Shown here: positions 31,775 to 49,702 of the stretch, piece after piece
How positions within the stretch are numbered: position 1 is the stretch's first letter
Layout of the letters: the number at the start of each line of letters is the position of its first letter
NCBI GenBank assembly: GCA_000002445.1
Contig: CM000207.1
Span: 960,001 to 1,024,000, forward strand
Reading direction: 5' to 3'
DNA length: 64,000 bases
DNA from: Trypanosoma brucei
Lineage: Eukaryota
The notes under the pieces: generated by a model
Databases searched by the model: none
Told to the model about the DNA's origin: nothing
The model's input: only the letters and a program-made list of their open reading frames with translations
Made by a program: the position numbers and the translations under genes

Positions 31775-32356
31775 TTGAGTTTGTGTTGTTGGGATGGTTC
31801 AGTATTCTGCTGACCATTTGCTGTACGTTTGTGTTTTTGTCGACATAGTTTTTCGTTATGTGTAGTTTGCTGCAGGTTAGGAAGTTGAGTCATCTAGGAG
31901 AGCACGCATTTTGCCCGTATGTGGAATTGGTATCTTAATTGAGAATATAACGTCTCCAGTTGTGGGATATATATATATATGTATATATATTCTACATGCA
32001 TATCTAATTCACAAACAATGCGTCACCTTGAGGTGGCTGTTCACTACGAACTTTGTTACGCTTGGTTCCTCAATTTTTGGGTTGGACTCACCACTCATTG
32101 TGATCGGCTACGTTGTGGTACCCGGTTTATTGACTCTCTGCCTCTAGTGGCACATTATTAACTGTACATGCCACCGTGCTTTTCGCCCTTATTTGCTCCC
32201 TTTACGGTGGCCAATTTATATTTAACTTCTTCTTCATTTTGAGTGCCTTATTTGCTGTCATCACTCTTTAATTTTATATTTGGGCTGATTCTTATAACCT
32301 TGTCACTACTATTTATACATACCCTTGTATCTTACGTTAGATCACACTTCTTACCT

Positions 32357-33796
32357 ATGAGCAGCACAGACAATGATATCGTTGAGGAGCCCCGCAGTTT
32401 CCGGAAGGAATTAGAGAACAGTAACGTTAGGGGTGTGTTGTTGTTTGTATTCATTGATGGTGCTGCGTCCTCCATATGGTCTTCCCAACCGTACCAGGTG
32501 ATGGTCAGTCGCCTTGCAGGTGATACTGCAGTTGGTTGGGTATCCGCTGCCGCTGGAGTCGCACAAATCGTTGGCGCATTGATAGCTGGTGGTGTTCGCA
32601 ATGTGCCCCGTCAAGTCATCTGCCGCCTCAGCGCCTTTTGTGGTTTGGTTGCTGTGATCATGTCAGTTTATGGTATTACAACCCAAGATATAATGATATA
32701 TTACTTTGCTTCTGCGCTGTGGGGCATGTATGGAGGGATGGCGTTCACGGGGACTGAAGCGCTGTTTGCTGACAGTGTTGAATCAGGAAAGCGCGGCTTC
32801 GTGTACAACCTGAAGTGGATCAATGAAACAACAAGCTCATGCGTTGGCTCCCTTATCCTGCTTATCATGACACTCTACCTTGGAAACGACTGGGATACAA
32901 ATGTCTTGAAGATTCTCATGTATACCGGTCTTGCCGTTCACCCCACCGCTTTCTTTGCTTTACTCGGCATGAAAGACAAAAACATTCTCCACGTTGATGA
33001 TGGGTGTGAAGATTGCGAGCAATCCGCATCGGAAGCAAGCCAACGTCGACTGACTGATGGTGACTCATCAACCAAACCTTTACTGGGAGGAACTAAGGAT
33101 ATAATCGAAGAGGACGGCTGGGATGAAGAATCTGAGGAAGAGGAAAGAAATTGCTGTGACTACCTCTGTACTGGGGTCACATCCTCCTGGCAATGGCTCT
33201 TCACTGTGTCAGCTTTACCGTTTTTGCTTAGTCTATCTGACCTTCTGATAGCTACGGGTTCAGGTATCACGTTACAATATATATCTTTGTACTTCATTGA
33301 AAAACGTCACGTAACTCCTATTATGTTTTTCATTACAAACATTGCCTCCAATATCTGTATCGCGCTTTCTTCTACGATGGTGCGTTATCTCAGCGAGCAT
33401 CACCTTGATCGTGTGAGTGCCACCATACTCGTACGCACACTTAGTGCATCACTGTTGCTAACAATGGGTGTGATTGAACTTCCTCTTGTTGCGCTTCTAC
33501 CGATATATGTTTGCCGTAATGCTTTAATGAATTCCACCGCGGGAGTTACACGCAGTATCATTATGGACTGCGCTCGCAGGGAGAACCGTGCGATGTGGGC
33601 TGCATTCGAGTGTTTTGTTTCTTTCATGTGGTCGGCAAGTTCTGTAATGGGCGGATACATTGCTAGTGCGAAGGGATATAAGTATACATTTGTCATCACT
33701 GCCCTAATTCACTTTATTGCTATGTTTGTATTGGTGCCGGCCATATCTGGTGTGCGGCAGTTGGACAGACACGCAAAAGCGAAATCACGAACTTGA
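32357..33796 (+). CDS. Multi-pass membrane transporter, probably major facilitator superfamily (12 predicted TM, about 479 aa); A-type copy
   Basis: About 12 hydrophobic helices. An MFS motif-A-like 'QVMVSRLAGDTAVGW' sits after TM2. Acidic central loop 'EEDGWDEESEEEERN'. The track start 32243 is a GTG in a pyrimidine tract; the first ATG is 32357 (MSSTDNDIVEEP...). Confidence 0.75.
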   Translation: MSSTDNDIVEEPRSFRKELENSNVRGVLLFVFIDGAASSIWSSQPYQVMVSRLAGDTAVGWVSAAAGVAQIVGALIAGGVRNVPRQVICRLSAFCGLVAVIMSVYGITTQDIMIYYFASALWGMYGGMAFTGTEALFADSVESGKRGFVYNLKWINETTSSCVGSLILLIMTLYLGNDWDTNVLKILMYTGLAVHPTAFFALLGMKDKNILHVDDGCEDCEQSASEASQRRLTDGDSSTKPLLGGTKDIIEEDGWDEESEEEERNCCDYLCTGVTSSWQWLFTVSALPFLLSLSDLLIATGSGITLQYISLYFIEKRHVTPIMFFITNIASNICIALSSTMVRYLSEHHLDRVSATILVRTLSASLLLTMGVIELPLVALLPIYVCRNALMNSTAGVTRSIIMDCARRENRAMWAAFECFVSFMWSASSVMGGYIASAKGYKYTFVITALIHFIAMFVLVPAISGVRQLDRHAKAKSRT

Positions 33797-34374
33797 GTGG
33801 CATTGGTGAGGGAATGTTGTTTGTTGCTTTGTTGGTGTCGTGTCTGCAACTCATATTTGGGAATGCGTGGGATCAGGAGCGATTGCCATGGGTCTTTGCT
33901 TTGGAAAAGATCTCTTTTTTTTTTGTTGATTGCTTACTTGTACTACGTGTTGGTAGAACGGGCGCTTACGGGACTACATGCACTACTCCATATTTACCGC
34001 TGTTGGGTTTGCACAGGGAAATTAGTTTCGTGTCCCTCTCTTTCATTTTTAATTTTTTTTTACATCAACTTTGTTACGCTTGGTTCCTCAATTTTTGGGT
34101 TGGACTCACCACTCATTGTGATCGGCTACGTTGTGGTACCCGGTTTATTGACTCTCTGCCTCTAGTGGCACATTATTAACTGTACATGCCACCGTGCTTT
34201 TCGCCCTTATTTGCTCCCTTTACGGTGGCCAATTTATATTTAACTTCTTCTTCATTTTGAGTGCCTTATTTGCTGTCATCACTCTTTAATTTTATATTTG
34301 GGCTGATTCTTATAACCTTGTCACTACTATTTATACATACCCTTGTATCTTACGTTAGATCACACTTCTTACCT

Positions 34375-35787
34375 ATGAGCAGCACAGACAATGATATCGT
34401 TGAGGAGCCCCGCAGTTTCCGGAAGGAATTAGAGAACAGTAACGTTCGAAATGTGTTGTTGTTTGCATTCCTTAATGGTGCTGCGTCCTCCATATGGTCT
34501 TCCCAACCGTACCAGGTGATGGTCAGTCGCCTTGCAGGTGATACTGCAGTTGGTTGGGTATCCGCTGCCTCGGGGACCACCCAAAGTATTAGCGCATTGA
34601 TAGCTGGTGGTGTTCGCAATGTGCCCCGTCAAGTCATCTGCCGCCTCAGCGCCTTTTGTGGTTTGGTTGCTGTGATCATGTCAGTTTATGGTATTACAAC
34701 CCAAGATATCACTGTCATTCTTCTTGCTTCTGCGCTGTGGGGCATGTATGGAGGGATGGCGTTCACGGGGACTGAAGCGCTGTTTGCTGACAGTGTTGAA
34801 TCAGGAAAGCGCGGCTTCGTGTACAACCTGAAGTGGATCAATGAAACAACAAGCTCATGCGTTGGCTCCCTTATCCTGCTTATCATGACACTCTACCTTG
34901 GAAACGACTGGGATACAAATGTCTTGAAGATTCTCATGTATACCGGTCTTGCCGTTCACCCCACCGCTTTCTTTGCTTTACTCGGCATGAAAGACAAAAA
35001 CATTCTCCACGTTGATGATGGGTGTGAAGATTGCGAGCAATCCGCATCGGAAGCAAGCCAACGTCGACTGACTGATGGTGACTCATCAACCAAACCTTTA
35101 CTGGGAGGAACTAAGGATACAATCGAAGAGGAGAATGAGTCAAAAAAGTATCGTAAGTGCCTCTGTGGTCGGATAGCCTCCTTCTGGCAATGGCTCTTCA
35201 CTGTGTCAGCTTTACCGTATTTGGTTGCTGCAACCAATTTGATTGCTTTTATTGGTTCAGGAATGACAATGCAATACATTTCCCTTTATTTTATAAAAGA
35301 ACGTCATGTAACTCCTATTATGTTTTTCATTACAAACATTGCCTCCAATATCTGTATCGCGCTTTCTTCTACGATGGTGCGTTATCTCAGCGAGCATCAC
35401 CTTGATCGTGTGAGTGCCACCATACTCGTACGCACACTTAGTGCATCACTGTTGCTAACAATGGGTGTGATTGAACTTCCTCTTGTTGCGCTTCTACCGA
35501 TATATGTTTGCCGTAATGCTTTAATGAATTCCACCGCGGGAGTTACACGCAGTATCATTATGGACTGCGCTCGCAGGGAGAACCGTGCGATGTGGGCTGC
35601 ATTCGAGTGTTTTGTTTCTTTCATGTGGTCGGCAAGTTCTGTAATGGGCGGATACATTGCTAGTGCGAAGGGATATAAGTATACATTTGTCATCACTGCC
35701 CTAATTCACTTTATTGCTATGTTTGTATTGGTGCCGGCCATATCTGGTGTGCGGCAGTTGGATAGGCGCGGCAAGGTTTTGCGGTAA
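34375..35787 (+). CDS. MFS-like membrane transporter, B-type copy (about 470 aa); differs from A in discrete patches and in its C-terminal tail
   Basis: Same frame and TM layout. Variant segments: NVLLFAFLNG, ASGTTQSISAL, ITVILLAS, central loop 'EEENESKKYRKCLCGRIAS', TM7 'YLVAATNLIAFIGSGMTMQ', tail 'RRGKVLR*'. Confidence 0.75.
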   Translation: MSSTDNDIVEEPRSFRKELENSNVRNVLLFAFLNGAASSIWSSQPYQVMVSRLAGDTAVGWVSAASGTTQSISALIAGGVRNVPRQVICRLSAFCGLVAVIMSVYGITTQDITVILLASALWGMYGGMAFTGTEALFADSVESGKRGFVYNLKWINETTSSCVGSLILLIMTLYLGNDWDTNVLKILMYTGLAVHPTAFFALLGMKDKNILHVDDGCEDCEQSASEASQRRLTDGDSSTKPLLGGTKDTIEEENESKKYRKCLCGRIASFWQWLFTVSALPYLVAATNLIAFIGSGMTMQYISLYFIKERHVTPIMFFITNIASNICIALSSTMVRYLSEHHLDRVSATILVRTLSASLLLTMGVIELPLVALLPIYVCRNALMNSTAGVTRSIIMDCARRENRAMWAAFECFVSFMWSASSVMGGYIASAKGYKYTFVITALIHFIAMFVLVPAISGVRQLDRRGKVLR

Positions 35788-36369
35788 TTGAGTTTGTGTT
35801 GTTGGGATGGTTCAGTATTCTGCTGACCATTTGCTGTACGTTTGTGTTTTTGTCGACATAGTTTTTCGTTATGTGTAGTTTGCTGCAGGTTAGGAAGTTG
35901 AGTCATCTAGGAGAGCACGCATTTTGCCCGTATGTGGAATTGGTATCTTAATTGAGAATATAACGTCTCCAGTTGTGGGATATATATATATATGTATATA
36001 TATTCTACATGCATATCTAATTCACAAACAATGCGTCACCTTGAGGTGGCTGTTCACTACGAACTTTGTTACGCTTGGTTCCTCAATTTTTGGGTTGGAC
36101 TCACCACTCATTGTGATCGGCTACGTTGTGGTACCCGGTTTATTGACTCTCTGCCTCTAGTGGCACATTATTAACTGTACATGCCACCGTGCTTTTCGCC
36201 CTTATTTGCTCCCTTTACGGTGGCCAATTTATATTTAACTTCTTCTTCATTTTGAGTGCCTTATTTGCTGTCATCACTCTTTAATTTTATATTTGGGCTG
36301 ATTCTTATAACCTTGTCACTACTATTTATACATACCCTTGTATCTTACGTTAGATCACACTTCTTACCT

Positions 36370-37809
36370 ATGAGCAGCACAGACAATGATATCGTTGAGG
36401 AGCCCCGCAGTTTCCGGAAGGAATTAGAGAACAGTAACGTTAGGGGTGTGTTGTTGTTTGTATTCATTGATGGTGCTGCGTCCTCCATATGGTCTTCCCA
36501 ACCGTACCAGGTGATGGTCAGTCGCCTTGCAGGTGATACTGCAGTTGGTTGGGTATCCGCTGCCGCTGGAGTCGCACAAATCGTTGGCGCATTGATAGCT
36601 GGTGGTGTTCGCAATGTGCCCCGTCAAGTCATCTGCCGCCTCAGCGCCTTTTGTGGTTTGGTTGCTGTGATCATGTCAGTTTATGGTATTACAACCCAAG
36701 ATATAATGATATATTACTTTGCTTCTGCGCTGTGGGGCATGTATGGAGGGATGGCGTTCACGGGGACTGAAGCGCTGTTTGCTGACAGTGTTGAATCAGG
36801 AAAGCGCGGCTTCGTGTACAACCTGAAGTGGATCAATGAAACAACAAGCTCATGCGTTGGCTCCCTTATCCTGCTTATCATGACACTCTACCTTGGAAAC
36901 GACTGGGATACAAATGTCTTGAAGATTCTCATGTATACCGGTCTTGCCGTTCACCCCACCGCTTTCTTTGCTTTACTCGGCATGAAAGACAAAAACATTC
37001 TCCACGTTGATGATGGGTGTGAAGATTGCGAGCAATCCGCATCGGAAGCAAGCCAACGTCGACTGACTGATGGTGACTCATCAACCAAACCTTTACTGGG
37101 AGGAACTAAGGATATAATCGAAGAGGACGGCTGGGATGAAGAATCTGAGGAAGAGGAAAGAAATTGCTGTGACTACCTCTGTACTGGGGTCACATCCTCC
37201 TGGCAATGGCTCTTCACTGTGTCAGCTTTACCGTTTTTGCTCGCTTTGGGTAATTTGCTTATTTCCGTTGGCTCTGGAGTCACAATGCAATACATTTCCC
37301 TTTATTTTATAAAAGAACGTCACGTAACTCCTATTATGTTTTTCATTACAAACATTGCTGTCAATATCTGTATCGCGCTTTCTTCCACGATGGTGCGTTA
37401 TCTCAGCGAGCATCACCTTGATCGTGTGAGTGCCACCATACTCGTACGCACACTTAGTGCGTTTTTCATGCTAACAATGGGTGTGATTGAACTTCCTCTT
37501 GTTGCGCTTCTACCGATATATGTTTGCCGTAATGCTTTAATGAATTCCACCGCGGGAGTTACACGCAGTATCATTATGGACTGCGCTCGCAGGGAGAACC
37601 GTGCGATGTGGGCTGCATTCGAGTGTTTTGTTTCTTTCATGTGGTCGGCAAGTTCTGTAATGGGCGGATACATTGCTAGTGCGAAGGGATATAAGTATAC
37701 ATTTGTCATCACTGCCCTAATTCACTTTATTGCTATGTTTGTATTGGTGCCGGCCATATCTGGTGTGCGGCAGTTGGACAGACACGCAAAAGCGAAATCA
37801 CGAACTTGA
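36370..37809 (+). CDS. MFS-like membrane transporter, A'-type copy (about 479 aa). A-like, but with B-like or novel patches in TM7-TM10
   Basis: Identical to copy A except 'FLLALGNLLISVGSGVTMQYISLYFIKERHV', 'AVNICIA' and 'SAFFMLTMG'. The tail 'HAKAKSRT*' is as in A. Confidence 0.75.
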   Translation: MSSTDNDIVEEPRSFRKELENSNVRGVLLFVFIDGAASSIWSSQPYQVMVSRLAGDTAVGWVSAAAGVAQIVGALIAGGVRNVPRQVICRLSAFCGLVAVIMSVYGITTQDIMIYYFASALWGMYGGMAFTGTEALFADSVESGKRGFVYNLKWINETTSSCVGSLILLIMTLYLGNDWDTNVLKILMYTGLAVHPTAFFALLGMKDKNILHVDDGCEDCEQSASEASQRRLTDGDSSTKPLLGGTKDIIEEDGWDEESEEEERNCCDYLCTGVTSSWQWLFTVSALPFLLALGNLLISVGSGVTMQYISLYFIKERHVTPIMFFITNIAVNICIALSSTMVRYLSEHHLDRVSATILVRTLSAFFMLTMGVIELPLVALLPIYVCRNALMNSTAGVTRSIIMDCARRENRAMWAAFECFVSFMWSASSVMGGYIASAKGYKYTFVITALIHFIAMFVLVPAISGVRQLDRHAKAKSRT

Positions 37810-39803: not shown

Positions 39804-41816
39804 ATGATTCTCCGGGGACGGTTAAGCGCTGCCCTAATACTTTCTAGTTACAGGACGGTAGTGACACCAATCGCTCCACCACACTACGTTCGTCGTCGAA
39901 TACGGGAAAGTATGGTTCGCCATGTTCTAACCGCAGCACAACCTTTGACAGTGAGTGATCTCATAGATCTTGTGCGAGGAACTTGTGATGTTGAAGGTTA
40001 CGCGTCAGCCCACCGTGAAGAACTAGGTGACGCCAGTTTTCCGAATTCATCATCTGATGAGCAACCCCCAACGCACGCGGTCGGGACAGAGAAAGAGAGG
40101 CAAGTTAGACATCTCACCAACTTTCTGGTAGCCAACACTCCCGAACAGGGTGACACTTCGTCATCATCATATAAGAAGCAATCAAACTACTTGATAGAAT
40201 CAACGGTTCGACTTCTGCTCGCCGTTGACCCCCAGTTTCGCGTTTCGGTGGGAGGGTATGTGTGCTACCCCAATTTGCCATCGATGATCATTGCATCAAC
40301 GAATGTTGAACGTAACGAATCATGGGTGCGGTCGATGCGCTCTCTTGTGCGGGCGGAGGAGGCCGCACATAGGACTACCGTGGACTGTAATGACAACAGA
40401 ACCACACGACGTATCGTCTCTGCACGAGCAGAAGAGGGTGCGCCCTCCCGGGGGTGGAGCTATATTGTAAGTCTTTGGTGCATGTTGGATCCCCTTTCGG
40501 AAACTCCGGAGGAAAATGATGTGGGGCGAAGGGATCTCAAGCAAGATACACAATGCTCTAAAAGAAACGCGAGTCGCGGGGGGGGCTCCTTCTCCGAACA
40601 CCTTGCCGAGCTCTGGATTAAAACATATGACTCGAAGGAACTGCCCCCTCTTTTATGTGGAGGCTCACCGACGGGTGGTTGGCCTGGGGCTCGTCCTTGC
40701 GAGTTCCGTGAGTGTACTGAGGGAAACGATGCGCTTCGACGCTGGTGCGCCGAGACGCGTGAGGGATATGTGAACGACTTACTCTTGGCGAAGGCAGTTC
40801 TCGCGCCAGCGGCGAGGACGCTTTTGCAACAGGTTAATTTTCACATGGCGTATTTGTTCAACCTCATTGTAGGTGTGCCTATTACATTGGGGCGGTTGTC
40901 AGCCCTTGTGCAGTGGGAAAGCCATCCGTTTGCAATGCACTACCGCTCGTTTCTTCATTTCGTCGTTCTGTTTACTGGTTGCTCTGCAGTCCTGCAAATG
41001 GAGCGCTATGAAATGCGACGGCGAGAGGTGCAAAAACGGTGGAGAAGTTTGCTATGGGTTCAGGTGCACGAGGAGTGGGAGCGCCAGCGGCAACAGCAGC
41101 TGGTGGGCCGTTTTGCCTCGCGCACTCTCGTAGATGAGGCACACGCTAATACACGTACCGGGCAGGTTGAAGCGGCTGTGGCGAATGTAAGTGGCACTAG
41201 TGACGATTATGGTGATATAGGTGGTACTCCGAGAGTTTCTCTGGGCGCAGAGCATTACCGATTCTGGGTAACCGGCACTAGTGGCCCATCTGTGAGTCCG
41301 AAGTTTGCGGACGTGTGTCGATGTGTTTTCCTTATGCCGTCGGCGGGTATGGCACCGGTGGACGTGACAACGCGAAGTCCCTCTGAGGTGATGGACGACC
41401 TTGCGGCTATGGAGCAACGAAACGGTGAAGAAAAGGGAGGCACGGTGAATGATATCGTCGTGTTTGCTGCTACTCCCTTTGTGCTCGAGCAGCGAATATG
41501 TCGTCTTGTAAGACTGTGGTGGTTACTTGAGGGACAGCGCACATCTCAAGACCGCACGAATGATGTTGTTATTACTATACGGCGGCTCTCCCAGCTTTGT
41601 TTGTGGGAACACGAGTACGGCAATCCAGCTGCGTCACGCATGATGCTCCACTACCTTCAATCTTTCGAATATACAGAGGGCGTCATAAAGCTGGTGCCAC
41701 CACCTGAACAGTCAGTGACAAAGCCTGATAGTGTTGACACTGCCGGGCAGTGGTTGGTAGTTGTTTCTCGGGCAAAGAAGACGGGAAAGAAGAGCGCGGA
41801 AATTGATGGTTCTTGA
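39804..41816 (+). CDS. Hypothetical protein, 670 aa
   Basis: Long ATG-initiated ORF co-oriented with the unit. No recognisable motifs. Confidence 0.55.
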   Translation: MILRGRLSAALILSSYRTVVTPIAPPHYVRRRIRESMVRHVLTAAQPLTVSDLIDLVRGTCDVEGYASAHREELGDASFPNSSSDEQPPTHAVGTEKERQVRHLTNFLVANTPEQGDTSSSSYKKQSNYLIESTVRLLLAVDPQFRVSVGGYVCYPNLPSMIIASTNVERNESWVRSMRSLVRAEEAAHRTTVDCNDNRTTRRIVSARAEEGAPSRGWSYIVSLWCMLDPLSETPEENDVGRRDLKQDTQCSKRNASRGGGSFSEHLAELWIKTYDSKELPPLLCGGSPTGGWPGARPCEFRECTEGNDALRRWCAETREGYVNDLLLAKAVLAPAARTLLQQVNFHMAYLFNLIVGVPITLGRLSALVQWESHPFAMHYRSFLHFVVLFTGCSAVLQMERYEMRRREVQKRWRSLLWVQVHEEWERQRQQQLVGRFASRTLVDEAHANTRTGQVEAAVANVSGTSDDYGDIGGTPRVSLGAEHYRFWVTGTSGPSVSPKFADVCRCVFLMPSAGMAPVDVTTRSPSEVMDDLAAMEQRNGEEKGGTVNDIVVFAATPFVLEQRICRLVRLWWLLEGQRTSQDRTNDVVITIRRLSQLCLWEHEYGNPAASRMMLHYLQSFEYTEGVIKLVPPPEQSVTKPDSVDTAGQWLVVVSRAKKTGKKSAEIDGS

Positions 41817-42742: not shown

Positions 42743-43657
42743 ATGGTAGGCTCCAGCTTTTCCTCACGGCACGAAAGGCGAGATATGTCCCCTTATAGTA
42801 CACGGGAAAATTTGGAGGCCGCACCGGTCCCACAACGGTGGTCGCTGCTGTTTGTACACAGACATATGTGGCGCACAAAGCGTAGGAAAGTGGAAGAAAA
42901 TAATGTGGGAGGCCTGCACTTGACACCATCCCTTGAGTTGGAGGAGATAACGGATGACGGTGATGTATGTTTACGGTGTTCGCAAGAGGAAGGGACCGAA
43001 AGGGACAATAGTAGCGAGAATGAACGGAGCTCTTCACCTGTGCCGGTACCACTCAATTCTGTTAACCCTCAGTTTCGACAAGCGGACGGAGCTGCACTGC
43101 CCGACGGTGACGTCGATACTTTGGGAATTTTACCGTCGCTGGCGCACCCAGTGGTGTTAGGGAAAGCCTTGGATGCTATTGAACTTGTGGCAAAGCATGT
43201 ACAACATCTACACTGCACGAAATGCCCGCTTTGCGGGCCGCCGAAGCCGCCAACTTGGTGGTCCACCCCGCGCGCAAGAAGGCGTCTGAGAAGGGAGGAT
43301 AACCAAGTTGGGATACGCAGCAGAGCTGACTGGGAAGCCGGGGAAACCTCACACAACAAAGAAAATATCTCTTCACCGTCATCTTTGATCGGAGCAGTAC
43401 CACAGCGCAGAACGGTAGCGGCGTCTAACACTTGCTGTAGTCACAAAGATGATGTGCGGCGCGCACACGTCCTTTCCAAAGCTGAAGAATTTCTTCAACA
43501 CATATATGACAGACGGAACCGGTTAATCGCGTCGCGGCCACTGATGTACGCTGTACCTGCCGAATCCCATGTGCTTTGGCGGGAGTGCTCCCAACTTGGT
43601 GGGGTTGCACTACTGGAGGCACTTCTTCTGGGGTTCACATCACAGGAAGTAACGTAA
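42743..43657 (+). CDS. Hypothetical protein, 304 aa
   Basis: ATG ORF in the transcribed strand. No motifs. Overlapping minus-strand ORFs are judged to be shadows. Confidence 0.4.
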   Translation: MVGSSFSSRHERRDMSPYSTRENLEAAPVPQRWSLLFVHRHMWRTKRRKVEENNVGGLHLTPSLELEEITDDGDVCLRCSQEEGTERDNSSENERSSSPVPVPLNSVNPQFRQADGAALPDGDVDTLGILPSLAHPVVLGKALDAIELVAKHVQHLHCTKCPLCGPPKPPTWWSTPRARRRLRREDNQVGIRSRADWEAGETSHNKENISSPSSLIGAVPQRRTVAASNTCCSHKDDVRRAHVLSKAEEFLQHIYDRRNRLIASRPLMYAVPAESHVLWRECSQLGGVALLEALLLGFTSQEVT

Positions 43658-44068
43658 TACATATATACGTCGAGGGCAGCATGCCTTGTGAAACTCATGA
43701 CTGGTGCCATATTCCTGCATCTCTCTTTCTGCCACTTTCATAACTGATGGCACTATGAGCATCGTCTTTTTTCATCACATTCAGCTTCTGTGCTGCCTTT
43801 TAGTGTGTCCACTCAATTTTTTTGAATTCATTTTGCGCTGTTCTGGGCCTTTACGGATAGTAAGTTAAATTCAGTGACTAAGGTAAACCCTACAGGGAGC
43901 TTGTTTATCATTTATTTATCTTACTACACCAGTTTATACAGGCTCATACACACTTTCTCTCCACCTTCCTTATTTCTTTGTTAATTTCCCCACCGAGCTA
44001 TATACTCCGCAGCATAAAGTGTCAGGTTCAAATAGCTGCCAGTTTTTGGCGTCTGTGGAAAGCGAACG

Positions 44069-46990
44069 ATGAAGTCATCTGATCATGACGAAGAGGGCTT
44101 AGTCGATTTATTTGCCGCGGGTGACGAAGTAGAACCCGAATACACAATTGAACAAATGATTATCGATCGCCAGGAGTTGAGTCGTGAAGGGGAGACAGCT
44201 TGTGGCTTCACTCCGCTTTTCGACCGCTTTGACAATCCGACAAAGCGTGAGGAAGGTGTGGAGACGTCCCCCAAGTTGCCTTTGCGGCCGATGCAAGTGT
44301 ACTTCCGCAATAAGCGACACAGCCTTTGGGGTCATAAACTATGGAACGCGGCACGTTATTTTGTAAAGCGGATAGACAGCGGTATGATCGATGTGCGCGG
44401 GAAAACTGTGTTGGAACTGGGGGCGGGACTTGGTGTACCATCTCTCGCAGCATTCCGCAACGGCGCACGGTGCGTTGTAGTGACGGACTATCCGGACGAG
44501 TCGCTGATGGAGATATTGAGAATGAATACAGAAACGAATTGTACGCTGGACCAATTGGACCCAACTGCCGCAGAGTTTCTTAGGCAGGAAGCGGTTCGGT
44601 TGAAATCTGCGTATATGTCTGTTCACAAAGGGCAGGAAACAGGGAAGGGTGATGATCGGGAAGGAAAAGGTGTTCCATTGAATTCGCGGTGTGTCGTTCA
44701 GCCTCTACTGTGGGGTAACACTGATCATATTCGTGAAGCCCTCAAGCACACCAGTGGCACGGGCTTTGACGTGCTATTACTCTCCGACATTCTCTTTAAC
44801 CATGTTTGTAACGATGACCTCGCGGGTACTGTTGTTCAGTTACTTCAACGTAGTCCAAAAGCGGCGGCGTACTGTGCCTTCTCCCACCACCGCGCGCACA
44901 AACAGGTGGAAGACTTGATGTTCTTTGATATATGTGCATCACGCGGCCTTTTGTGCGAGCAGATTGATGAGGAGGATTACCCTCTCATGTTCCCCGACGA
45001 CCGTGGCCCGGAGGAGATACGGCGGCCGGTGAAGGTGTATAAGTTGTCACATCGGTTTGATGCGGCAGGTGTGCCGCTGGAGCCGGGGCAGGAAACGTAT
45101 GATGTGGTAGTGCAGGGCACGGGCATGGTGGAGTGCTTTCTTGCCGCTGCACTTGCACGCAGTGGGGTGCGTGTGTTACAATGCGATGCCCAAGGTGAAT
45201 ATGGCGGACCGTTCAAAACACTGACGGTTCAACAGTTGCGAAAATATATTCTACAATCGCCCAACGACTCAGGTGATGAATCAAGCCCATCTGATGTCTA
45301 CGCAGGTGGGAGCCAGCAGGTTAGTAGCAGGGGAAGTGATAAAGATCCGAGTGGTGTTGGGAACAATAACGGCAATGGGGACGAAAACACCTCGATCATA
45401 TCGGTGGATTTGATGGATACACTCGATGTCCGAACGCAGCATCGCTTTCTGCTTGACCTCCTCCCTGTACACTACTTCTCTAAGGGTGATACCGTTCGAA
45501 AGTTTGTGGAGTCGGACATGGCGCGGCATGCTGAATTTCAATGTTGCAGTAGTTTTGCCTTTTTGTTTCGGTGTGGTGAGACTGACGAAAGCTGTGCATT
45601 CCGACTGCAAAGCGTTCCGCTGACGCGGGCACAAGTATTCTCTGCTGATCATATTGGGCTGATGCAAAAGCGTCGTTTAATGAAATTTGTGAAGGATGTG
45701 GCTGCCCCACTCGCCGAACACCTGCATGCCCGGACAGCTGCTCTGGGTGAGGAAGAGCCCGGGCACACCGACGTGCAAGAGGTAGGAGAGCTTTTCCAGC
45801 AAGAGGTTTCCCAACATCCCAACGAAACACTTAGCGAGTTGCTGCGCCGGAAGTACGCTGTTGATGAGACGACATTAAATATTGTGACGCTTCTGGGGCA
45901 GTTGGAGACCTCATCTGAACCCTGTATGCTGCGCGCTGTAGACCTGGTGCGCCAAGTATTAACATCTATTGGGGCTTACGGGGGTTCAACACCTTTTCTT
46001 GTGCCTTTGTATGGCGCCTCAGAGGTACCACAAAACATGTGTCGTATCGCGGCCGTGTGGAATGCTGTGTTCGTGTTACGTCGGAGTGTAAGCCGTGTCT
46101 TGAAGGGTCTTGATACACCGACGGTGGAAATGAGCAACCGACAACATGTGAAGGCTAAAGTTGTGGTCGTACCCCGTGCGTTGGCCTCCAAGTTCGCTTC
46201 GGTGTCTGGCGCAAATGATGCTAATGATGAGAATATAACACGTTTCTCTCGGGTTGTCATCGTAGCTAAGAAACCGCTGGTGACGTGGAAAGCGCTATCT
46301 TCCTCCGGGTGCTGTGAAGAAGAGGTAACCACAGCAACTGAAAGTTTGGAGGGAACGGCCAAGACATCTAGCGTAGAGGGGATCCCGCCGTTGGTGTTCG
46401 CGCTGTGCCAGGCTCAACCCGGTGTGGTCGTCCATGTTCAACAGCAAAGCGCATCGTCCGAACAGGCGCCCAAAGAAGGCAATGCCGTTGTCGTGCATTT
46501 CACTGTAAACAACTGCCAAATGAGCGCCAAGCAACTGCACAGATTCGTCGAGGAGTCCTTCATAGCATCTGCTGCTTCAGCTGGTGAAGACTGTGTTGTG
46601 CTGGATAAAGATGCAATACTCTTTTTCGCTTCCTTCGTACTGGATGAACGAGAGGAAGCACTCCGTGGGGTTGCCCATGGCGCCTGGGATTTCCTGGCTA
46701 GTGAAACGGAGAAAGCCCATCCCTTTGCTGTGGAGGAGTATCGCAAACGCCAGAAAAAAAGCAAATGCGATTTAGTCGAATTCGATGATGACGGCGTGCT
46801 AATTGTTCCAGTGCCCACGCTCCTACAGAATCTTATGGACGATGGAGCCTACCTGAAGGAAGCGCAGCAGGCGTATGAGACCGTGGTGGCACGACTTCAG
46901 ATGCAGATGAAGGAGGAGGAGGGGGGTGACAAAACCAAACAATACGTGTTTCTCGAGCCCCTACCACCCGTTTCCTCAGTAAGTTCCTGA
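44069..46990 (+). CDS. Two-domain protein of 973 aa: N-terminal Methyltransf_16-type SAM-dependent (putative protein-lysine) methyltransferase domain fused to a C-terminal Rab GDI / Rab escort protein (REP) family domain
   Basis: N-terminal part: 'GHKLWNAARYFV...GKTVLELGAGLGVPSLAAFRNGARCVVVTDYPD...LLWGN...FDVLLLSDILF' (typical METTL21/Nnt1 layout). C-terminal part: 'YDVVVQGTGMVECFLAAALARSGVRVLQCDAQGEYGG' (GDI dinucleotide-fold motif) and 'GGSTPFLVPLYGASEVPQNMCRIAAVWNAVFVL' (cf. GDI '[31 protein letters not shown]'). One uninterrupted ORF. Confidence 0.8.
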   Translation: MKSSDHDEEGLVDLFAAGDEVEPEYTIEQMIIDRQELSREGETACGFTPLFDRFDNPTKREEGVETSPKLPLRPMQVYFRNKRHSLWGHKLWNAARYFVKRIDSGMIDVRGKTVLELGAGLGVPSLAAFRNGARCVVVTDYPDESLMEILRMNTETNCTLDQLDPTAAEFLRQEAVRLKSAYMSVHKGQETGKGDDREGKGVPLNSRCVVQPLLWGNTDHIREALKHTSGTGFDVLLLSDILFNHVCNDDLAGTVVQLLQRSPKAAAYCAFSHHRAHKQVEDLMFFDICASRGLLCEQIDEEDYPLMFPDDRGPEEIRRPVKVYKLSHRFDAAGVPLEPGQETYDVVVQGTGMVECFLAAALARSGVRVLQCDAQGEYGGPFKTLTVQQLRKYILQSPNDSGDESSPSDVYAGGSQQVSSRGSDKDPSGVGNNNGNGDENTSIISVDLMDTLDVRTQHRFLLDLLPVHYFSKGDTVRKFVESDMARHAEFQCCSSFAFLFRCGETDESCAFRLQSVPLTRAQVFSADHIGLMQKRRLMKFVKDVAAPLAEHLHARTAALGEEEPGHTDVQEVGELFQQEVSQHPNETLSELLRRKYAVDETTLNIVTLLGQLETSSEPCMLRAVDLVRQVLTSIGAYGGSTPFLVPLYGASEVPQNMCRIAAVWNAVFVLRRSVSRVLKGLDTPTVEMSNRQHVKAKVVVVPRALASKFASVSGANDANDENITRFSRVVIVAKKPLVTWKALSSSGCCEEEVTTATESLEGTAKTSSVEGIPPLVFALCQAQPGVVVHVQQQSASSEQAPKEGNAVVVHFTVNNCQMSAKQLHRFVEESFIASAASAGEDCVVLDKDAILFFASFVLDEREEALRGVAHGAWDFLASETEKAHPFAVEEYRKRQKKSKCDLVEFDDDGVLIVPVPTLLQNLMDDGAYLKEAQQAYETVVARLQMQMKEEEGGDKTKQYVFLEPLPPVSSVSS

Positions 46991-47337
46991 TAAGTGGTAT
47001 GACAGAAACCGGAGCAAAATCACTATTCAAGAAAAGGAAAAAAGGGGCGCCGTCTCTCCATCGGGAGTGTAATCAAGGGGAATGTCACGGCGCGCAATGG
47101 TCACAGTGGTGAAGTGACCATACAACACTTGAGCAAGTGGTTGCCTTTGGAGGGCAACAAAGGCAAATAACAACGTCTTACCAAATAATACATACATGTC
47201 TAACGTTAACTGTGCTCTGCTCCGCTGGAAACGGCGGATCTGCCCTTTGCTATCGGTGTTATTTTCCTTCCTGCGATATGTGTCTGCGCGCGTGCACACA
47301 AGAACGTAATCTCTGCCGTATTCCCTGTGCTTCATGG

Positions 47338-47724
47338 ATGCTTTACCTCCTGTTTCTTCTCACATTTATGTGTCCATTACCCATCTGCAATCAAGCAACC
47401 AATTTGACTGAGGAATTAAATTTGCTACACTGTAGCGATTGGTTTGTGTACGCGTATGCGCTTAGGGATATGTTATACGACCGCAGCATAGCGAGGGTTT
47501 TCCTCGTTTTGACAACGCTTTTGTATGTTTACTACGTTGTGTGGATCGGTGTTACACCCTTTATTGTGTCGTCCCACTTCACGCAAAATTTTTTTCCTCC
47601 CCGTGAGTATGGCATATTCGTTGCTGCTGCTGTGATGACGCTTATGCTGGGCGTCACTGTCACGTTGGCGTCTGTACGAACCATATTGTGGGCCGGGGCG
47701 GTGGGTCCGGAGGAAAGCGGGTGA
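47338..47724 (+). CDS. Possible small 3-TM membrane protein (about 128 aa); weak call
   Basis: The track ORF 47137.. starts at a GTG. From the in-frame ATG at 47338 (the second ATG; the first is 47278) it encodes three hydrophobic helices (MLYLLFLLTFM..., IARVFLVLTTLLYVYYVVWIGV, IFVAAAVMTLMLGVTVTLASV). No homology recognised. Confidence 0.25.
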   Translation: MLYLLFLLTFMCPLPICNQATNLTEELNLLHCSDWFVYAYALRDMLYDRSIARVFLVLTTLLYVYYVVWIGVTPFIVSSHFTQNFFPPREYGIFVAAAVMTLMLGVTVTLASVRTILWAGAVGPEESG

Positions 47725-48340
47725 AATGAGGTTTGATTGAAAGGGTTGTTTGCTTTGTGTGGTGGTACGCATGCACCTATTTGAACTAATAGCGGGGTAA
47801 ATAGGTGGGTGTACTTCTGTTGCCTGAACTCCCAGTGCCGTTTTACTACACGGTCTTTATTGTTGCTATTATTGCTATTGTTCACTTCCGCGCACTGCAT
47901 GTTGTTGCTTCATGAGGGGGGGGGTGGCATTTGGTAGTGCAGCGTGGTTTGCTGGAGTTGTGGTGACACGATTATATTTGCACGGTTTCTGGTACTGCTT
48001 TATCTGTTAGGTCTTTCCTTTCTTTGCATTATCTTATTTTCGTGTACCCTGCTGCTGTTTGTTGGGTTTTACTTCCTAACCAAATGGGCTGTTTCTTGAA
48101 ACTTTGTCTGTGCACTTCTCCCGCACGCACTGCTCTGATCTGACTGTAAAATTCTGCTCCGACGTGTGGTTCCCAGGACCGTGAAATAAACCAGATTACA
48201 TACGCATATACCTAACGGTGATTGTACGCCATTTGGCACAGCAGACAAGTAACGCTTTTAAAAGGTGCAGCGGGGTGGTAGGTATTTTAACAAAGAAGAA
48301 ACGAGAACACGGCATCAAACATACTTGTGTCACCTGCTTA

Positions 48341-49702
48341 ATGGTGTCCCGGGTATTCAGTGCGTATGCGGAGTGGGTCCGTAGGAACGCCGACAATGTG
48401 GCCTCCATGGAGCGGTTTACGCACATGCTCACGATTATCCTTATGAGCCCTAACAACATGTTAAAACACGAGATAGGGAACACCATCGTTAACATACAGA
48501 ACTTCTCTAACCACGCTATCATTTCTTCTGCTGGAAGAAAACTAAGTGTTGCGGAGCAGATATCTATTGTAGGACAAATTATTCGGAAAGCGGAATGCCT
48601 ACTTGAGTTACTACTACGCCGTTACCGAGGACATAGGACAGCATGGAACTTCTTGTTGATTCTGCAGCTCCTGAAGTGCTTCCTAAACCTGGTTGCGCAC
48701 CAACAAATGTGTCTTCTGCCTTCCATATGGCAAGCTTTGCGACGCCAGCTCCGGCGCCTTATCACGTTTCCAAAAAAACTACTCGGGCCATCAGGTGTAT
48801 CGAGTGGTAACTCTGGTGCCGCCTTATCCAATTTACCCCAGAGCAGTCAAGCAGCGGAACGGACTACACCACTCGTTATTCCACGTGTGGTTGCCACCCG
48901 TATGTTCAGGGACCGGAGTTCCGAAGCTGTGGGTGACGATGCCGATTTCTCTCAAGCTGGAAAGGGCAGTAACAGCGGCGGGGGTAATCCCGATGTGTTG
49001 CCATGCACGGCGTATGATGTGCTGGGTGCTGTTGTGGATTTTTTGTTGTTGTTGCGCCCACTCTTTTTGTTGTACTGCGCCCGGTCTGCGTTCCCGACTA
49101 CAGCTATGGATGCTTGCTCCCAAATAGCCTCAGAGGTAGAAGACACAACCCTCGATGATGGCCCACGGGATAGCAATGTTACCGACAAAAAGTCCGATTA
49201 CGGCAGCTTCTTTTCTGTGAAGTCGTTGATAGCAGATGGTCTCAAGGAATCGCTTCTAGGAAATTGGAGTATCTGGACCCTTTTCTTAGGTCTAGATGTG
49301 ATTTTTGCAGCCTTGGCTCGTTACATTTTCCATTACCGTAAGCCCATTGTGTGCATCAACAGGGATGCTAGAAACTACAGCGGCGTCGGCAGTAATGGTG
49401 GTAGGCAAATTGCACATGACGGCGAAGTGCCATCTCCGGAGTTGAGTGGCGTCAATTCAGCGGCAGAGCCCGACACCGTCGTCTCCCGTGACAGCCTCCG
49501 CGTGCAACAAACGATGCATAATTTAGTTTGCTGTTTCCTTCGTGATCCTTTCTTCGGTTCTGTGCTGCGGAGGTTCATTTACGACAACTTCATTGTCGGA
49601 CGAATTAACGGTATACCACTGGTGGGATCACTCCTCGCGCTGCATGTTGCCTCTTTCCTCTGCAGGCAACACTACTCGTTCATGTACTCTATCGGAGAGT
49701 GA
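48341..49702 (+). CDS. Hypothetical protein, about 453 aa
   Basis: The track start 48218 is a GTG; the first ATG is 48341. Long ORF with no recognisable domain. Confidence 0.5.
   Translation: MVSRVFSAYAEWVRRNADNVASMERFTHMLTIILMSPNNMLKHEIGNTIVNIQNFSNHAIISSAGRKLSVAEQISIVGQIIRKAECLLELLLRRYRGHRTAWNFLLILQLLKCFLNLVAHQQMCLLPSIWQALRRQLRRLITFPKKLLGPSGVSSGNSGAALSNLPQSSQAAERTTPLVIPRVVATRMFRDRSSEAVGDDADFSQAGKGSNSGGGNPDVLPCTAYDVLGAVVDFLLLLRPLFLLYCARSAFPTTAMDACSQIASEVEDTTLDDGPRDSNVTDKKSDYGSFFSVKSLIADGLKESLLGNWSIWTLFLGLDVIFAALARYIFHYRKPIVCINRDARNYSGVGSNGGRQIAHDGEVPSPELSGVNSAAEPDTVVSRDSLRVQQTMHNLVCCFLRDPFFGSVLRRFIYDNFIVGRINGIPLVGSLLALHVASFLCRQHYSFMYSIGE

What the first reader, a model, noticed from the sequence alone, without database searches (positions are those of the whole stretch)
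44069..46990. Single ORF fusing a Methyltransf_16-type protein methyltransferase to a Rab GDI/REP-family domain
The N-terminal about 310 aa carries the layout of family-16 SAM-dependent (METTL21/Nnt1/Efm-like) lysine methyltransferases, with hallmarks 'VLELGAGLG', 'VVTDYPD', 'LLWGN' and 'FDVLLLSDILF'. After a linker of about 35 aa, the remaining about 630 aa carry the GDI/REP dinucleotide-fold motif 'YDVVVQGTGMVECF...GEYGG' and the GDI 'PLYG..E.PQ...R.AAV.....L' block. Rab escort proteins and GDIs are normally stand-alone. Covalent fusion to a methyltransferase suggests coupling of Rab prenylation or recycling to a protein-methylation step. It could also be a lineage-specific moonlighting module. 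I cannot tell from sequence whether this architecture is already catalogued.
Basis: partly seen in the sequence, partly recalled or inferred. Interest (0 to 1): 0.65.

Follow-up and report, generated by a model that had tools for sequence, protein, structure and literature searches.

The report
Kinetoplastid Rab escort protein–Efm7 methyltransferase fusion
In Trypanosoma brucei and all other kinetoplastids sampled, the Rab escort protein that Rab GTPases need for lipid attachment is made as one polypeptide with a complete, apparently active Efm7-type protein methyltransferase; databases list this ancient fusion, but I found no paper that describes or studies it.

Summary
Window 44069-46990 (+) is one uninterrupted 973-aa ORF, identical to T. 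brucei TREU927 XP_827012.1.

- **N-terminal half (aa 1-330):** a complete Efm7/Nnt1-type family-16 methyltransferase with every SAM-binding and catalytic motif intact.
- **C-terminal half (aa 342-973):** a Rab escort protein (REP), not a GDI. It scores 194 bits against rat REP-1 and 111 against the best GDI. The REP-specific RabGGTase-binding residues (REP-1 F279/R290 = F524/R535) are invariant.
- **Linker:** 11 conserved residues, not about 35.
- **Distribution:** the fusion forms one discrete family found in trypanosomatids, unnamed environmental relatives and Prokinetoplastina (Perkinsela, Papus, Apiculatamorpha). It therefore dates to the base of Kinetoplastea.
- **Conservation:** the methyltransferase core is more conserved than the REP half.
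- **Structure:** two independent AlphaFold models give pTM 0.81 with a confident junction, which suggests a rigid unit.
- **Two-mRNA alternative:** no splice-acceptor-like tract or usable start codon lies at the junction.

Most likely this is a bifunctional protein: REP for Rab prenylation plus an eEF1A N-terminal methyltransferase. Whether the two activities are coupled is unknown. Automated annotation already lists the architecture, but I found no paper describing it. I rate it a new variant of known kinds, of moderate to high interest.

The parts
43951..43982 (+). Polypyrimidine tract upstream of the start codon, followed by AG dinucleotides. Probable trans-splice acceptor region for this gene's mRNA.
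   Evidence: It is the only 25-nt window with at least 88% pyrimidines on the + strand between 42.5 and 47.8 kb; sequence read. Its function as an acceptor is inferred from general knowledge of trypanosome mRNA processing.
44069..46990 (+). Complete 973-aa ORF (stop codon included). T. brucei TREU927 XP_827012.1; probably gene Tb927.9.6430, inferred from its position.
   Evidence: identical to P0044. The gene ID is inferred from neighbours: a DPM2 ORF (Tb927.9.6440) lies directly downstream, and KKT22 is Tb927.9.6420.
44069..45058 (+). Efm7/Nnt1-type family-16 SAM-dependent protein methyltransferase domain (aa 1-330). It carries kinetoplastid- or trypanosomatid-specific insertions at about aa 30-65 and about aa 160-205.
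44408..44443 (+). Methyltransferase motif I, VLELGAGLGVPS (aa 114-125): the SAM-binding glycine-rich loop.
   Evidence: E116, L117, G118, G120, L121, G122 and P124 are invariant in 22 fused homologues. The motif is kept in 24 of 27 representatives.
44474..44497 (+). Methyltransferase motif post-I, VVVTDYPD (aa 136-143), with acidic D140.
   Evidence: T139, D140 and Y141 are invariant.
44783..44803 (+). Family-16 catalytic [D/E]XX[Y/F] motif within SDILFNH (aa 239-245; D240...F243).
   Evidence: S239, D240, F243, N244 and H245 are invariant. The motif definition comes from PMC5324768 and PMC7743719.
45059..45091 (+). Inter-domain linker DAAGVPLEPGQ (aa 331-341), carrying the conserved D-x-AG-x-P-[LV]-[DE] motif.
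   Evidence: The junction block is conserved across 27 representatives. pLDDT is 83-93 in the T. brucei model and about 91 in the P0025 model. No pyrimidine tract is present: the maximum pyrimidine fraction in any 25-nt window is 0.68.
45092..46987 (+). Rab escort protein (RabGGTase component A) half, aa 342-973.
45101..45208 (+). REP/GDI conserved regions SCR1A and SCR1B (DVVVQGTGMVECFL ... GVRVLQCDAQGEYGG, aa 345-380): the dinucleotide-fold strand and part of the Rab-binding platform.
   Evidence: D345, V346, V347, G350 and Y378 are invariant. The SCR consensus is quoted in PMC5107955.
45269..45376 (+). Low-complexity, predicted-disordered insert (aa 401-436) at the position of the REP-specific insert between SCR1 and SCR2.
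   Evidence: pLDDT is below 50 for aa 401-436. Relative to GDI chains the query has extra residues between aa 402 and 461. The REP insert is described in PMC1994686.
45611..45691 (+). Domain II segment SVPLTRAQVFSADHIGLMQKRRLMKFV (aa 515-541), containing F524 and R535. These are the equivalents of rat REP-1 F279 and R290, which bind the RabGGTase alpha subunit.
   Evidence: Residue-by-residue alignments to REP-1. F and R are invariant in 27 of 27 fused representatives. The role of F279/R290 is stated in PMC2943070. Yeast GDI has Ile at the F279 position (alignment).
45986..46084 (+). SCR3B block STPFLVPLYGASEVPQNMCRIAAVWNAVFVLRR (aa 640-672): the Rab-binding platform.
   Evidence: Y648, G649, E652, R659, A662 and V663 are invariant.

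Best explanation
This is a genuine gene fusion, present throughout Kinetoplastea, that encodes one roughly 107-kDa bifunctional protein.

The C-terminal two thirds are the organism's Rab escort protein. By homology, this part binds newly made GDP-bound Rab GTPases on its domain I platform and presents them to Rab geranylgeranyltransferase through domain II (F524/R535). It then shields the attached geranylgeranyl groups and delivers the Rab to membranes.

The N-terminal third is a complete, catalytically competent orthologue of yeast Efm7/Nnt1. It most likely uses S-adenosylmethionine to methylate the N-terminal Gly-Lys of translation elongation factor eEF1A.

The fusion arose once, in the common ancestor of kinetoplastids. 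An Efm7 gene was joined head-to-tail to the REP gene through an 11-residue linker that has since become a conserved, structured connector, so the two domains form a compact unit.

Shown here: the single ORF, the identity and completeness of both domains, intact catalytic and binding motifs, single origin, strong purifying selection on the methyltransferase, and absence of an internal processing signal.

Inferred: REP activity, eEF1A as substrate, a rigid interface, and the view that the two activities serve different clients and are linked mainly by co-expression and physical scaffolding rather than by a shared reaction.
For: - **Single ORF:** identical to the reference protein and reproduced in other T. 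brucei-group assemblies.
- **Both Pfam domains above cut-off**.
- **Methyltransferase half is Efm7:** the best stand-alone relatives are all Efm7/Nnt1 (E about 1e-34, 33-40% identity), colinear from the N-terminal DLF motif to the C-terminus. No stand-alone kinetoplastid Efm7 appears among the best 120 hits.
- **Catalytic motifs kept:** motif I, post-I and the [D/E]XX[Y/F] motif are invariant, as are the tryptophans W87, W92 and W215.
- **Conservation:** the methyltransferase core is more conserved than the REP half (55% versus 38% between T. brucei and Leishmania).
- **Discrete family:** an exhaustive search of 1.84 billion representatives finds about two dozen clusters at 400-1370 bits, then a sharp drop to stand-alone REP and Efm7 proteins at about 175-200 bits.
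- **Deep distribution:** Perkinsela, Papus and Apiculatamorpha (Prokinetoplastina) have both domains above cut-off. The latter two sequences have identifiers in the style of transcriptome assemblies, which suggests one mRNA spans both domains.
- **Single origin:** rooted NJ trees of the two halves are congruent, with the fused proteins monophyletic.
- **Junction:** no pyrimidine tract at the junction, and the first Met after it (M353) lies inside the GxG motif.
- **Compact unit:** pTM 0.81 in two independent models, with a high-confidence linker.
- **Synteny:** a distant fused orthologue shares the downstream DPM2 and Pex16 neighbours.
Against: - No biochemical or transcript data for T. brucei were available here. 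eEF1A as substrate is extrapolated from yeast Efm7 at only 33-40% identity.
- I could not test whether kinetoplastids also have METTL13, the other known eEF1A N-terminal methyltransferase.
- The high pTM, the conserved structured linker and the retention of a motif-less N-terminal region in three lineages all hint that the N-terminal domain does something for the REP half. That fits the 'independent activities' picture less well.
- Absence of a stand-alone REP or Efm7 in kinetoplastids rests on ranked hit lists and a 2007 paper, not on a genome-wide search.
- The trees are NJ without bootstrap support.
Confidence: 0.6

Rival explanations
1. Mechanistically coupled enzyme. The Efm7-like domain has been retargeted to a client held by the REP half. 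It would methylate Rab GTPases, RabGGTase or REP itself, so that methylation gates Rab prenylation or delivery.
For: The 11-residue linker is conserved and predicted with high confidence, and pTM is 0.81 in two independent models. The fusion has been kept for the whole history of Kinetoplastea, including the reduced Perkinsela genome. The methyltransferase half carries kinetoplastid-specific conserved insertions (aa 30-65) that are absent from stand-alone Efm7 and could form a new substrate or interface surface.
Against: The methyltransferase half keeps the full Efm7 layout, including the N-terminal DLF-EP motif shared with fungal Efm7. Family-16 enzymes are reported to have very restricted substrates (PMC5324768). 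No literature links REP/Mrs6 with Efm7 or eEF1A. Relatives with all methyltransferase motifs lost keep an intact REP half. No stand-alone Efm7 was seen in kinetoplastids, so eEF1A methylation, if it is kept, would need this domain.
Confidence: 0.17
2. The N-terminal domain acts mainly as a structural or regulatory module for REP, for example a folding scaffold, a partner-docking surface or a SAM sensor. Catalysis would be dispensable, in the manner of the catalytically dead paralogues ('prozymes') known in trypanosomatids.
For: Three lineages (P0181, P0182, P0184) have lost every SAM-binding and catalytic motif but keep a 250-400-aa N-terminal region in front of an intact REP half. They branch beside intact copies. 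Both models predict a compact arrangement.
Against: In T. brucei and in 24 of 27 representatives every catalytic motif is invariant, and the methyltransferase core evolves more slowly than the REP half. That is the signature of a working enzyme. I could not tell whether the degenerate copies are extra paralogues or sole copies, because they come from different samples.
Confidence: 0.12
3. The long ORF is not expressed as one protein. Internal trans-splicing or alternative initiation would give separate methyltransferase and REP products, or the fusion would be an annotation or assembly artefact.
For: Alternative trans-splicing inside coding regions is known in T. brucei (general knowledge), and no T. 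brucei transcript or proteomic data could be examined here.
Against: The same continuous ORF occurs in more than 40 independently assembled genomes and transcriptomes with a length-conserved junction. No pyrimidine tract lies at the junction. The first downstream Met (M353) would remove the beta1 strand of the dinucleotide fold, and the nearest upstream Met (M307) lies inside the conserved methyltransferase C-terminal block. GC3 is the same in both halves.
Confidence: 0.03
4. The C-terminal half is a GDI-type recycling factor, not a REP.
For: Pfam has only one model (GDI, PF00996) for both subfamilies. Several database entries name orthologues 'RAB GDP dissociation inhibitor alpha'.
Against: REP-1 outscores every GDI by about 80 bits with the family profile. 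The REP-specific Phe (F279 equivalent) is invariant, whereas yeast GDI has Ile there. The REP-type insert and a C-terminal extension are present, with a weak RAE1/2 domI_C hit. Leishmania has a separate canonical GDI.
Confidence: 0.03

Closest known systems
Rab escort protein 1 (rat/human REP-1/CHM; yeast Mrs6), component A of Rab geranylgeranyltransferase
   Different: This protein carries a complete 330-aa methyltransferase fused to its N-terminus through a conserved 11-residue linker. Sequence identity to REP-1 is only about 18-23%. The insert is shorter than in vertebrate REP-1.
Yeast Efm7 / Nnt1 (YLR285W) and its fungal and amoebozoan orthologues: family-16 methyltransferase that trimethylates Gly2 and dimethylates Lys3 of eEF1A
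   Same: The methyltransferase half is colinear with Efm7 over the full length of about 250-270 aa at 33-40% identity. The N-terminal DLF motif, HxLWG-LWNA, motif I, TDYPD, WG, D-x-x-F-N-H and the C-terminal MFP-D-G-E--R block are all shared.
   Different: Here the domain is not a free protein: its C-terminus continues directly into REP. It has two lineage-specific insertions (about aa 30-65 and about aa 160-205). Its substrate has not been tested.
PDB 3bzb, uncharacterised protein CMQ451C of the red alga Cyanidioschyzon merolae
   Different: It is a stand-alone 281-aa protein with no assigned function.
Rab GDP dissociation inhibitor (bovine/yeast GDI; Leishmania LdGDI)
   Same: Same superfamily and fold, with shared SCR motifs.
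   Different: GDIs are about 445-450 aa, lack the REP insert and C-terminal extension, and lack the REP-specific Phe. They score about 80 bits lower. Leishmania encodes its GDI separately.
Human METTL13 (dual eEF1A methyltransferase)
   Same: A multidomain protein in which an eEF1A N-terminal methyltransferase activity is fused to a second functional domain. It shows that eEF1A N-terminal methylation has evolved more than once (PMC6109062).
   Different: Its N-terminal methyltransferase domain has an unrelated, spermidine-synthase-like fold, and its partner domain is another eEF1A methyltransferase, not a trafficking factor.

Membership tests
Rab escort protein (REP, RabGGTase component A) | Belongs to the GDI/REP superfamily (Pfam PF00996 above the gathering score; GDI/REP fold) | tested here: met
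Rab escort protein (REP, RabGGTase component A) | Closer to REPs than to GDIs | tested here: met
Rab escort protein (REP, RabGGTase component A) | REP-specific RabGGTase-binding residues equivalent to REP-1 F279 and R290 | tested here: met
   F524 and R535 align with F279 and R290. Both are invariant in 27 of 27 fused representatives. The criterion comes from PMC2943070.
Rab escort protein (REP, RabGGTase component A) | Conserved Rab-binding platform (SCR1A DVxxxGTGxxExxL, SCR1B ...YGG, SCR3B ExxQxxxRxxA) | tested here: met
   DVVVQGTGMVECFL, GVRVLQCDAQGEYGG and SEVPQNMCRIAAV are present. D345, G350, Y378, E652 and R659 are invariant. The consensus comes from PMC5107955. There are minor deviations (H to Q; YYG to EYGG).
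Rab escort protein (REP, RabGGTase component A) | Insert between SCR1 and SCR2, and a C-terminal extension, relative to GDI | tested here: met
   Extra residues at about aa 402-461 relative to GDI chains. aa 401-436 are disordered in the model. There is a weak RAE1/2 domI_C hit, E 0.02-0.04, below the cut-off.
Rab escort protein (REP, RabGGTase component A) | Binds unprenylated Rab and supports geranylgeranylation by RabGGTase | not testable with these tools
   This needs a reconstituted prenylation assay.
Rab escort protein (REP, RabGGTase component A) | It is the only REP of the organism (no stand-alone REP) | tested here: inconclusive
   No kinetoplastid stand-alone REP appeared above the nematode REPs in the exhaustive search. 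However, only the top 150 hits are listed, and no kinetoplastid genome could be searched directly.
Family-16 methyltransferases (Methyltransf_16), Efm7/Nnt1 subfamily | Pfam PF10294 above the gathering score; seven-beta-strand family-16 fold | tested here: met
Family-16 methyltransferases (Methyltransf_16), Efm7/Nnt1 subfamily | SAM-binding motif I (glycine-rich loop) and acidic post-I residue | tested here: met
   LELGAGLG (aa 115-122) and TDYPD (D140) are invariant in A1 and A2 and kept in 24 of 27 representatives.
Family-16 methyltransferases (Methyltransf_16), Efm7/Nnt1 subfamily | [D/E]XX[Y/F] catalytic motif | tested here: met
   D240-I-L-F243 is invariant. The criterion comes from PMC5324768 and PMC7743719.
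Family-16 methyltransferases (Methyltransf_16), Efm7/Nnt1 subfamily | Two conserved tryptophans at the AdoMet/active site (Efm2 W222 and W318) | tested here: inconclusive
   W87, W92 and W215 are invariant in the fused family and in Efm7 orthologues. I did not align them to Efm2, so the residue-to-residue correspondence is inferred.
Family-16 methyltransferases (Methyltransf_16), Efm7/Nnt1 subfamily | Orthology to Efm7 rather than to other family-16 members | tested here: met
   All named hits among the best 120 stand-alone relatives are Efm7/NNT1. The alignment is colinear over the full length. 3bzb scores 141 bits against 38 bits or less for METTL21A-D. A reciprocal search from yeast Efm7 was not possible.
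Family-16 methyltransferases (Methyltransf_16), Efm7/Nnt1 subfamily | Methylates eEF1A Gly2 (alpha-N) and Lys3 | not testable with these tools
   The yeast substrate is given in PMC5324768 and PMC6109062. From memory, T. brucei eEF1A begins MGKEK, so the target sequence would be present.
Rab GDP dissociation inhibitor (GDI) | About 450 aa, no REP insert, non-aromatic residue at the REP-1 F279 position, best matches to GDIs | tested here: not met
   The REP half is 632 aa with an insert and a C-terminal extension. Phe is invariant at the F279 position, whereas yeast GDI has Ile. REP-1 outscores the GDIs.

The most novel reading that the evidence does not exclude
The Efm7-derived domain is mechanistically integrated with the escort function. 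Held rigidly next to the Rab-binding platform, it would methylate REP-bound Rab GTPases or RabGGTase. Alternatively, it would tether eEF1A to the prenylation machinery so that newly made Rabs are captured near the ribosome. Either way, kinetoplastids would have a lineage-specific, SAM-dependent control point on Rab prenylation with no counterpart in the host.
Probability: 0.15. Interest if true: 0.8.

Novelty: new variant of a known kind. Interest (0 to 1): 0.55.

Why it matters
REP is required for all Rab prenylation, and so for membrane traffic. Kinetoplastid parasites depend heavily on traffic for surface-coat recycling and immune evasion.

- **Undescribed architecture.** In every kinetoplastid sampled, this housekeeping factor is joined to a complete, strongly conserved protein methyltransferase. 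Surveys of the Rab prenylation complex did not note this, and I found no paper that discusses it.
- **If the activities are independent.** The gene is a clean marker for Kinetoplastea. It also identifies the candidate eEF1A N-terminal methyltransferase of trypanosomes.
- **If the activities are coupled.** The fusion would reveal an unknown link between protein methylation or translation and Rab lipidation.
- **Drug-target angle.** The parasite protein differs in architecture from human REP-1/2. It offers an extra SAM pocket and an inter-domain interface that could be exploited selectively.
- **A natural experiment.** The motif-less relatives show what the N-terminal domain does apart from catalysis.

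Tried and rejected
- **Profile search of the word-indexed database:** it returned essentially the same 44 proteins as the single-sequence search and added nothing. The exhaustive search was needed.
- **afdb50 fold search:** this was meant to test whether independently predicted orthologues share the same domain arrangement and to obtain organism names. The library was unavailable. I used a second AlphaFold prediction of a 35%-identical orthologue as a replicate instead.
- **Model coordinates and PAE:** they are not exposed, so I could not measure the inter-domain interface or see which way the active site faces.
- **Synteny of metagenomic contigs L001 and L002 with the window:** only the fused gene matched, so the test was uninformative. 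L003 did show DPM2 and Pex16 downstream.
- **Paralogue test for the motif-less copies:** I checked whether P0181 and P0182 come from the same samples as their intact sisters P0034 and P0175. All four come from different samples, so paralogue versus degenerate orthologue is unresolved.
- **Bacterial promoter/terminator scan and tandem-repeat scan of the gene:** the scan models do not apply to trypanosomes, and no repeats were found.
- **Literature searches:** Efm7 plus Rab escort, Mrs6 plus eEF1A, 'Rab escort' plus 'methyltransferase domain', and the candidate gene ID Tb927.9.6430 gave nothing relevant.
- **GDI identity and the artefact or two-mRNA explanation:** considered and rejected on the evidence given under the rival explanations.

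Full report
**1. The observation**

Window 44069-46990 (+) is a single ATG-initiated ORF of 973 codons with no internal stop. The product is identical to T. brucei brucei TREU927 XP_827012.1 (UniProt Q38ET8), which is annotated only as 'Rab geranylgeranyl transferase component A, putative'. Four other T. brucei-group sequences (T. b. gambiense, T. equiperdum, T. b. equiperdum and a Logan assembly) encode the same fused ORF at 975 aa. GC3 is the same in the two halves, 0.54 and 0.52. A frameshift or assembly artefact is therefore excluded.

All but one of the ORFs of at least 250 aa in the window lie on the + strand, as expected for a trypanosome polycistronic unit. By position the gene is probably Tb927.9.6430. 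A DPM2-family ORF lies directly downstream, TbDPM2 is Tb927.9.6440, and KKT22 is Tb927.9.6420. This assignment is an inference.

**2. Domain identities**

Pfam scores both halves above the curated cut-offs: Methyltransf_16 at 40-44 bits against 21, and GDI at 79-81 bits against 23.

The residues that set REP apart from GDI in binding RabGGTase are REP-1 F279 and R290 (PMC2943070). They align with F524 and R535 and are invariant in all 27 fused representatives examined. Yeast GDI has Ile at the Phe position. The SCR1A, SCR1B and SCR3B blocks of the Rab-binding platform are present and conserved. A disordered insert (aa 401-436) occupies the position of the REP-specific insert.

Leishmania has a separate, functionally characterised 445-aa GDI (PMC5107955). 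A 2007 survey placed the T. brucei and T. cruzi sequences in the REP clade (PMC1994686). The C-terminal half is therefore a REP.

*N-terminal half.* Searched alone, its closest stand-alone relatives are uniformly the 250-270-aa Efm7/Nnt1 proteins ('protein N-terminal and lysine N-methyltransferase EFM7'), at 33-40% identity and E about 1e-34. No stand-alone kinetoplastid copy appears among the best 120 hits.

The invariant features are:
- motif I (LELGAGLG);
- the acidic post-I residue (TDYPD);
- the LWG motif;
- the family-16 catalytic [D/E]XX[Y/F] motif (D240-I-L-F243);
- three tryptophans, W87, W92 and W215 (criteria from PMC5324768 and PMC7743719).

The methyltransferase domain is therefore complete and looks catalytically competent. 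The real linker is 11 residues (DAAGVPLEPGQ, aa 331-341), not about 35.

**3. One product or two?**

On the + strand between 42.5 and 47.8 kb, the only strong polypyrimidine tract is at 43951-43982, just upstream of the annotated ATG. At the junction the maximum pyrimidine content of any 25-nt window is 0.68.

The first in-frame Met after the junction (M353) lies inside the QGTGM motif, so initiation there would delete strand beta1 of the dinucleotide fold. The nearest upstream Met (M307) lies in the conserved methyltransferase C-terminal block.

Across 27 representatives the junction has a fixed length in most lineages and carries a conserved D-x-AG-x-P-[LV]-[DE] motif. The Papus and Apiculatamorpha sequences have identifiers in the style of transcriptome assemblies, which suggests that one mRNA spans both domains there. 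Direct T. brucei transcript or proteomic data could not be consulted.

**4. Distribution and origin**

The fusion is present in Trypanosoma, Leishmania, Leptomonas, Lotmaria, Novymonas, Porcisia and many unnamed assemblies.

An exhaustive HMMER search of 1.84 billion representatives shows a discrete family. About two dozen 50%-identity clusters score 400-1370 bits and many span the junction. After a sharp drop, stand-alone REPs and Efm7-like proteins follow at about 175-200 bits. Separate methyltransferase and REP profiles classify 62 retrieved proteins as two-domain, counting redundant cluster members.

Named deep-branching members are Perkinsela sp. CCAP 1560/4 (KNH04932.1, annotated only as 'Rab escort protein'), Papus ankaliazontas and Apiculatamorpha spiralis. 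The taxonomy look-up places Papus and Apiculatamorpha in Prokinetoplastina; the look-up for Perkinsela failed, so its placement is from memory. All three pass both Pfam cut-offs.

Rooted NJ trees of the two halves, without bootstrap support, are congruent. The fused proteins are monophyletic, Prokinetoplastina branch first, and every unnamed sequence falls in the sister clade with the trypanosomatids. One distant member (P0025) shares downstream DPM2 and Pex16 neighbours with the T. brucei locus.

The simplest reading is a single fusion in the kinetoplastid ancestor. No fused protein attributable to diplonemids, euglenids or other eukaryotes surfaced. The best stand-alone REPs were nematode proteins. 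This is absence of evidence only.

**5. Selection and structure**

The methyltransferase core (aa 75-330) is consistently more conserved than the REP half. Identity to T. brucei is 71% versus 52% for T. cruzi-group species, 55% versus 38% for Leishmania, and 45-58% versus 26-34% for the most distant members.

AlphaFold2 on the T. brucei protein gives mean pLDDT 79.6 and pTM 0.81, with pLDDT 83-93 through the linker. An independent prediction of the 35%-identical orthologue P0025 gives pLDDT 79.7, pTM 0.81 and about 91 at the junction. For a protein split one third to two thirds, with more than 110 disordered residues, such a pTM implies a confidently fixed inter-domain arrangement.

**6. Degenerate relatives**

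Three unnamed lineages (P0181, P0182, P0184) have lost all methyltransferase motifs and fall below Pfam detection for PF10294. They still keep a 250-400-aa N-terminal region, the conserved junction and an intact REP half. They branch beside intact copies: P0181 with P0034, P0182 with P0175, and P0184 next to that pair. I could not decide whether they are additional paralogues or sole copies. Either way, REP function does not universally require methyltransferase catalysis, while the N-terminal domain as a body is retained.

**7. Mechanism**

*Best-supported explanation (confidence about 0.6).* This is a bifunctional protein.

The REP half would work as in other eukaryotes. It binds nascent GDP-Rab on domain I, docks to the RabGGTase alpha subunit through F524/R535, takes up the geranylgeranyl groups and delivers the Rab to membranes. 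This rests on homology and established REP biology (PMC2943070).

The Efm7 half would be the kinetoplastid eEF1A N-terminal Gly/Lys methyltransferase. This is extrapolated from yeast Efm7 (PMC5324768, PMC6109062) and from the narrow specificity of family-16 enzymes. From memory, T. brucei eEF1A begins MGKEK. In this view the fusion gives obligatory co-expression and a scaffold.

*Rivals.*
- Methylation is directed at REP clients: about 0.17.
- The N-terminal domain has a mainly structural or regulatory role: about 0.12.
- There are two separate products, or the fusion is an artefact: about 0.03.
- The C-terminal half is a GDI rather than a REP: about 0.03.

**8. Novelty**

Automated pipelines already record the architecture. 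Examples are 'Putative methyltransferase/GDP dissociation inhibitor' (L. donovani), 'Lysine methyltransferase/GDP dissociation inhibitor' (Lotmaria, T. vivax) and 'RAB protein geranylgeranyltransferase component A/predicted nicotinamide N-methyase' (JGI).

I found no paper that mentions it:
- the dedicated evolutionary survey of the Rab prenylation complex lists the T. brucei and T. cruzi REPs without noting the extra domain;
- reviews and kinetoplastid prenylation papers are silent;
- combined searches returned nothing relevant.

The searched library lacks most subscription-journal papers, so this is not proof of absence. I rate the finding a new variant of known kinds: two well-known modules in an undescribed, ancient and tightly integrated combination. 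It is of moderate to high interest.

Noticed in passing
window 32243-33796, 34261-35787, 36256-37809 (+): Three tandem ORFs of 517, 508 and 517 aa with MFS_1 matches just below Pfam's cut-off (28-33 bits against 33.4). From memory they may be the chromosome-9 MFST array (Tb927.9.6360-6380) that has been linked to suramin sensitivity. I did not verify this.
   Followed up: partly
window 47278-47724 (+): A small membrane-protein ORF directly downstream of the fusion gene matches Pfam DPM2 (47 bits, cut-off 27.3). TbDPM2 (Tb927.9.6440) is called a 'probable mis-annotation' in PMC7971885. The annotated 9.3-kDa product would start at an internal Met.
   Followed up: partly
window 48218-49702 (+); L003 8516-10089: There is a Pex16 homologue in the window (75 bits). 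The order fused gene ... DPM2 - Pex16 on one strand recurs in a distant kinetoplastid-like contig (Logan SRR7085473), so this micro-synteny is old.
   Followed up: partly
proteins P0181 (L004 234-2930), P0182 (L005 983-4927), P0184: These relatives of the fusion have lost every SAM-binding and catalytic motif in the N-terminal region, while the junction and the REP half stay intact. They are possible pseudo-enzyme paralogues. Their organisms are unknown.
   Followed up: partly
proteins P0310 / P0186 (Perkinsela-type): The reduced endosymbiont Perkinsela keeps the fusion in a shortened 698-aa form. The methyltransferase motifs are intact, but the C-terminal MFPDD-G block is lost and the REP half is very divergent (48-55 bits with the family's REP profile).
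   Followed up: partly
window 29784-30962 (+): ORF with a strong inositol monophosphatase family match (179 bits).
   Followed up: no
window 42743-43657 (+) and 39804-41816 (+): Two upstream ORFs (304 and 670 aa) have no Pfam match. By gene order they may be KKT22 (Tb927.9.6420) and the tripartite-attachment-complex candidate Tb927.9.6410. This is inferred from position only.
   Followed up: no
T. brucei protein aa 30-65 and 160-205 (window 44156-44263 and 44546-44683): Two insertions in the methyltransferase domain are absent from stand-alone Efm7. The first is conserved across the fused family and predicted with high confidence (pLDDT 87-91). The second forms a long helix (aa 165-187) and is missing from several non-trypanosomatid members. 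Their role, possibly at the interface with REP, is unknown.
   Followed up: no
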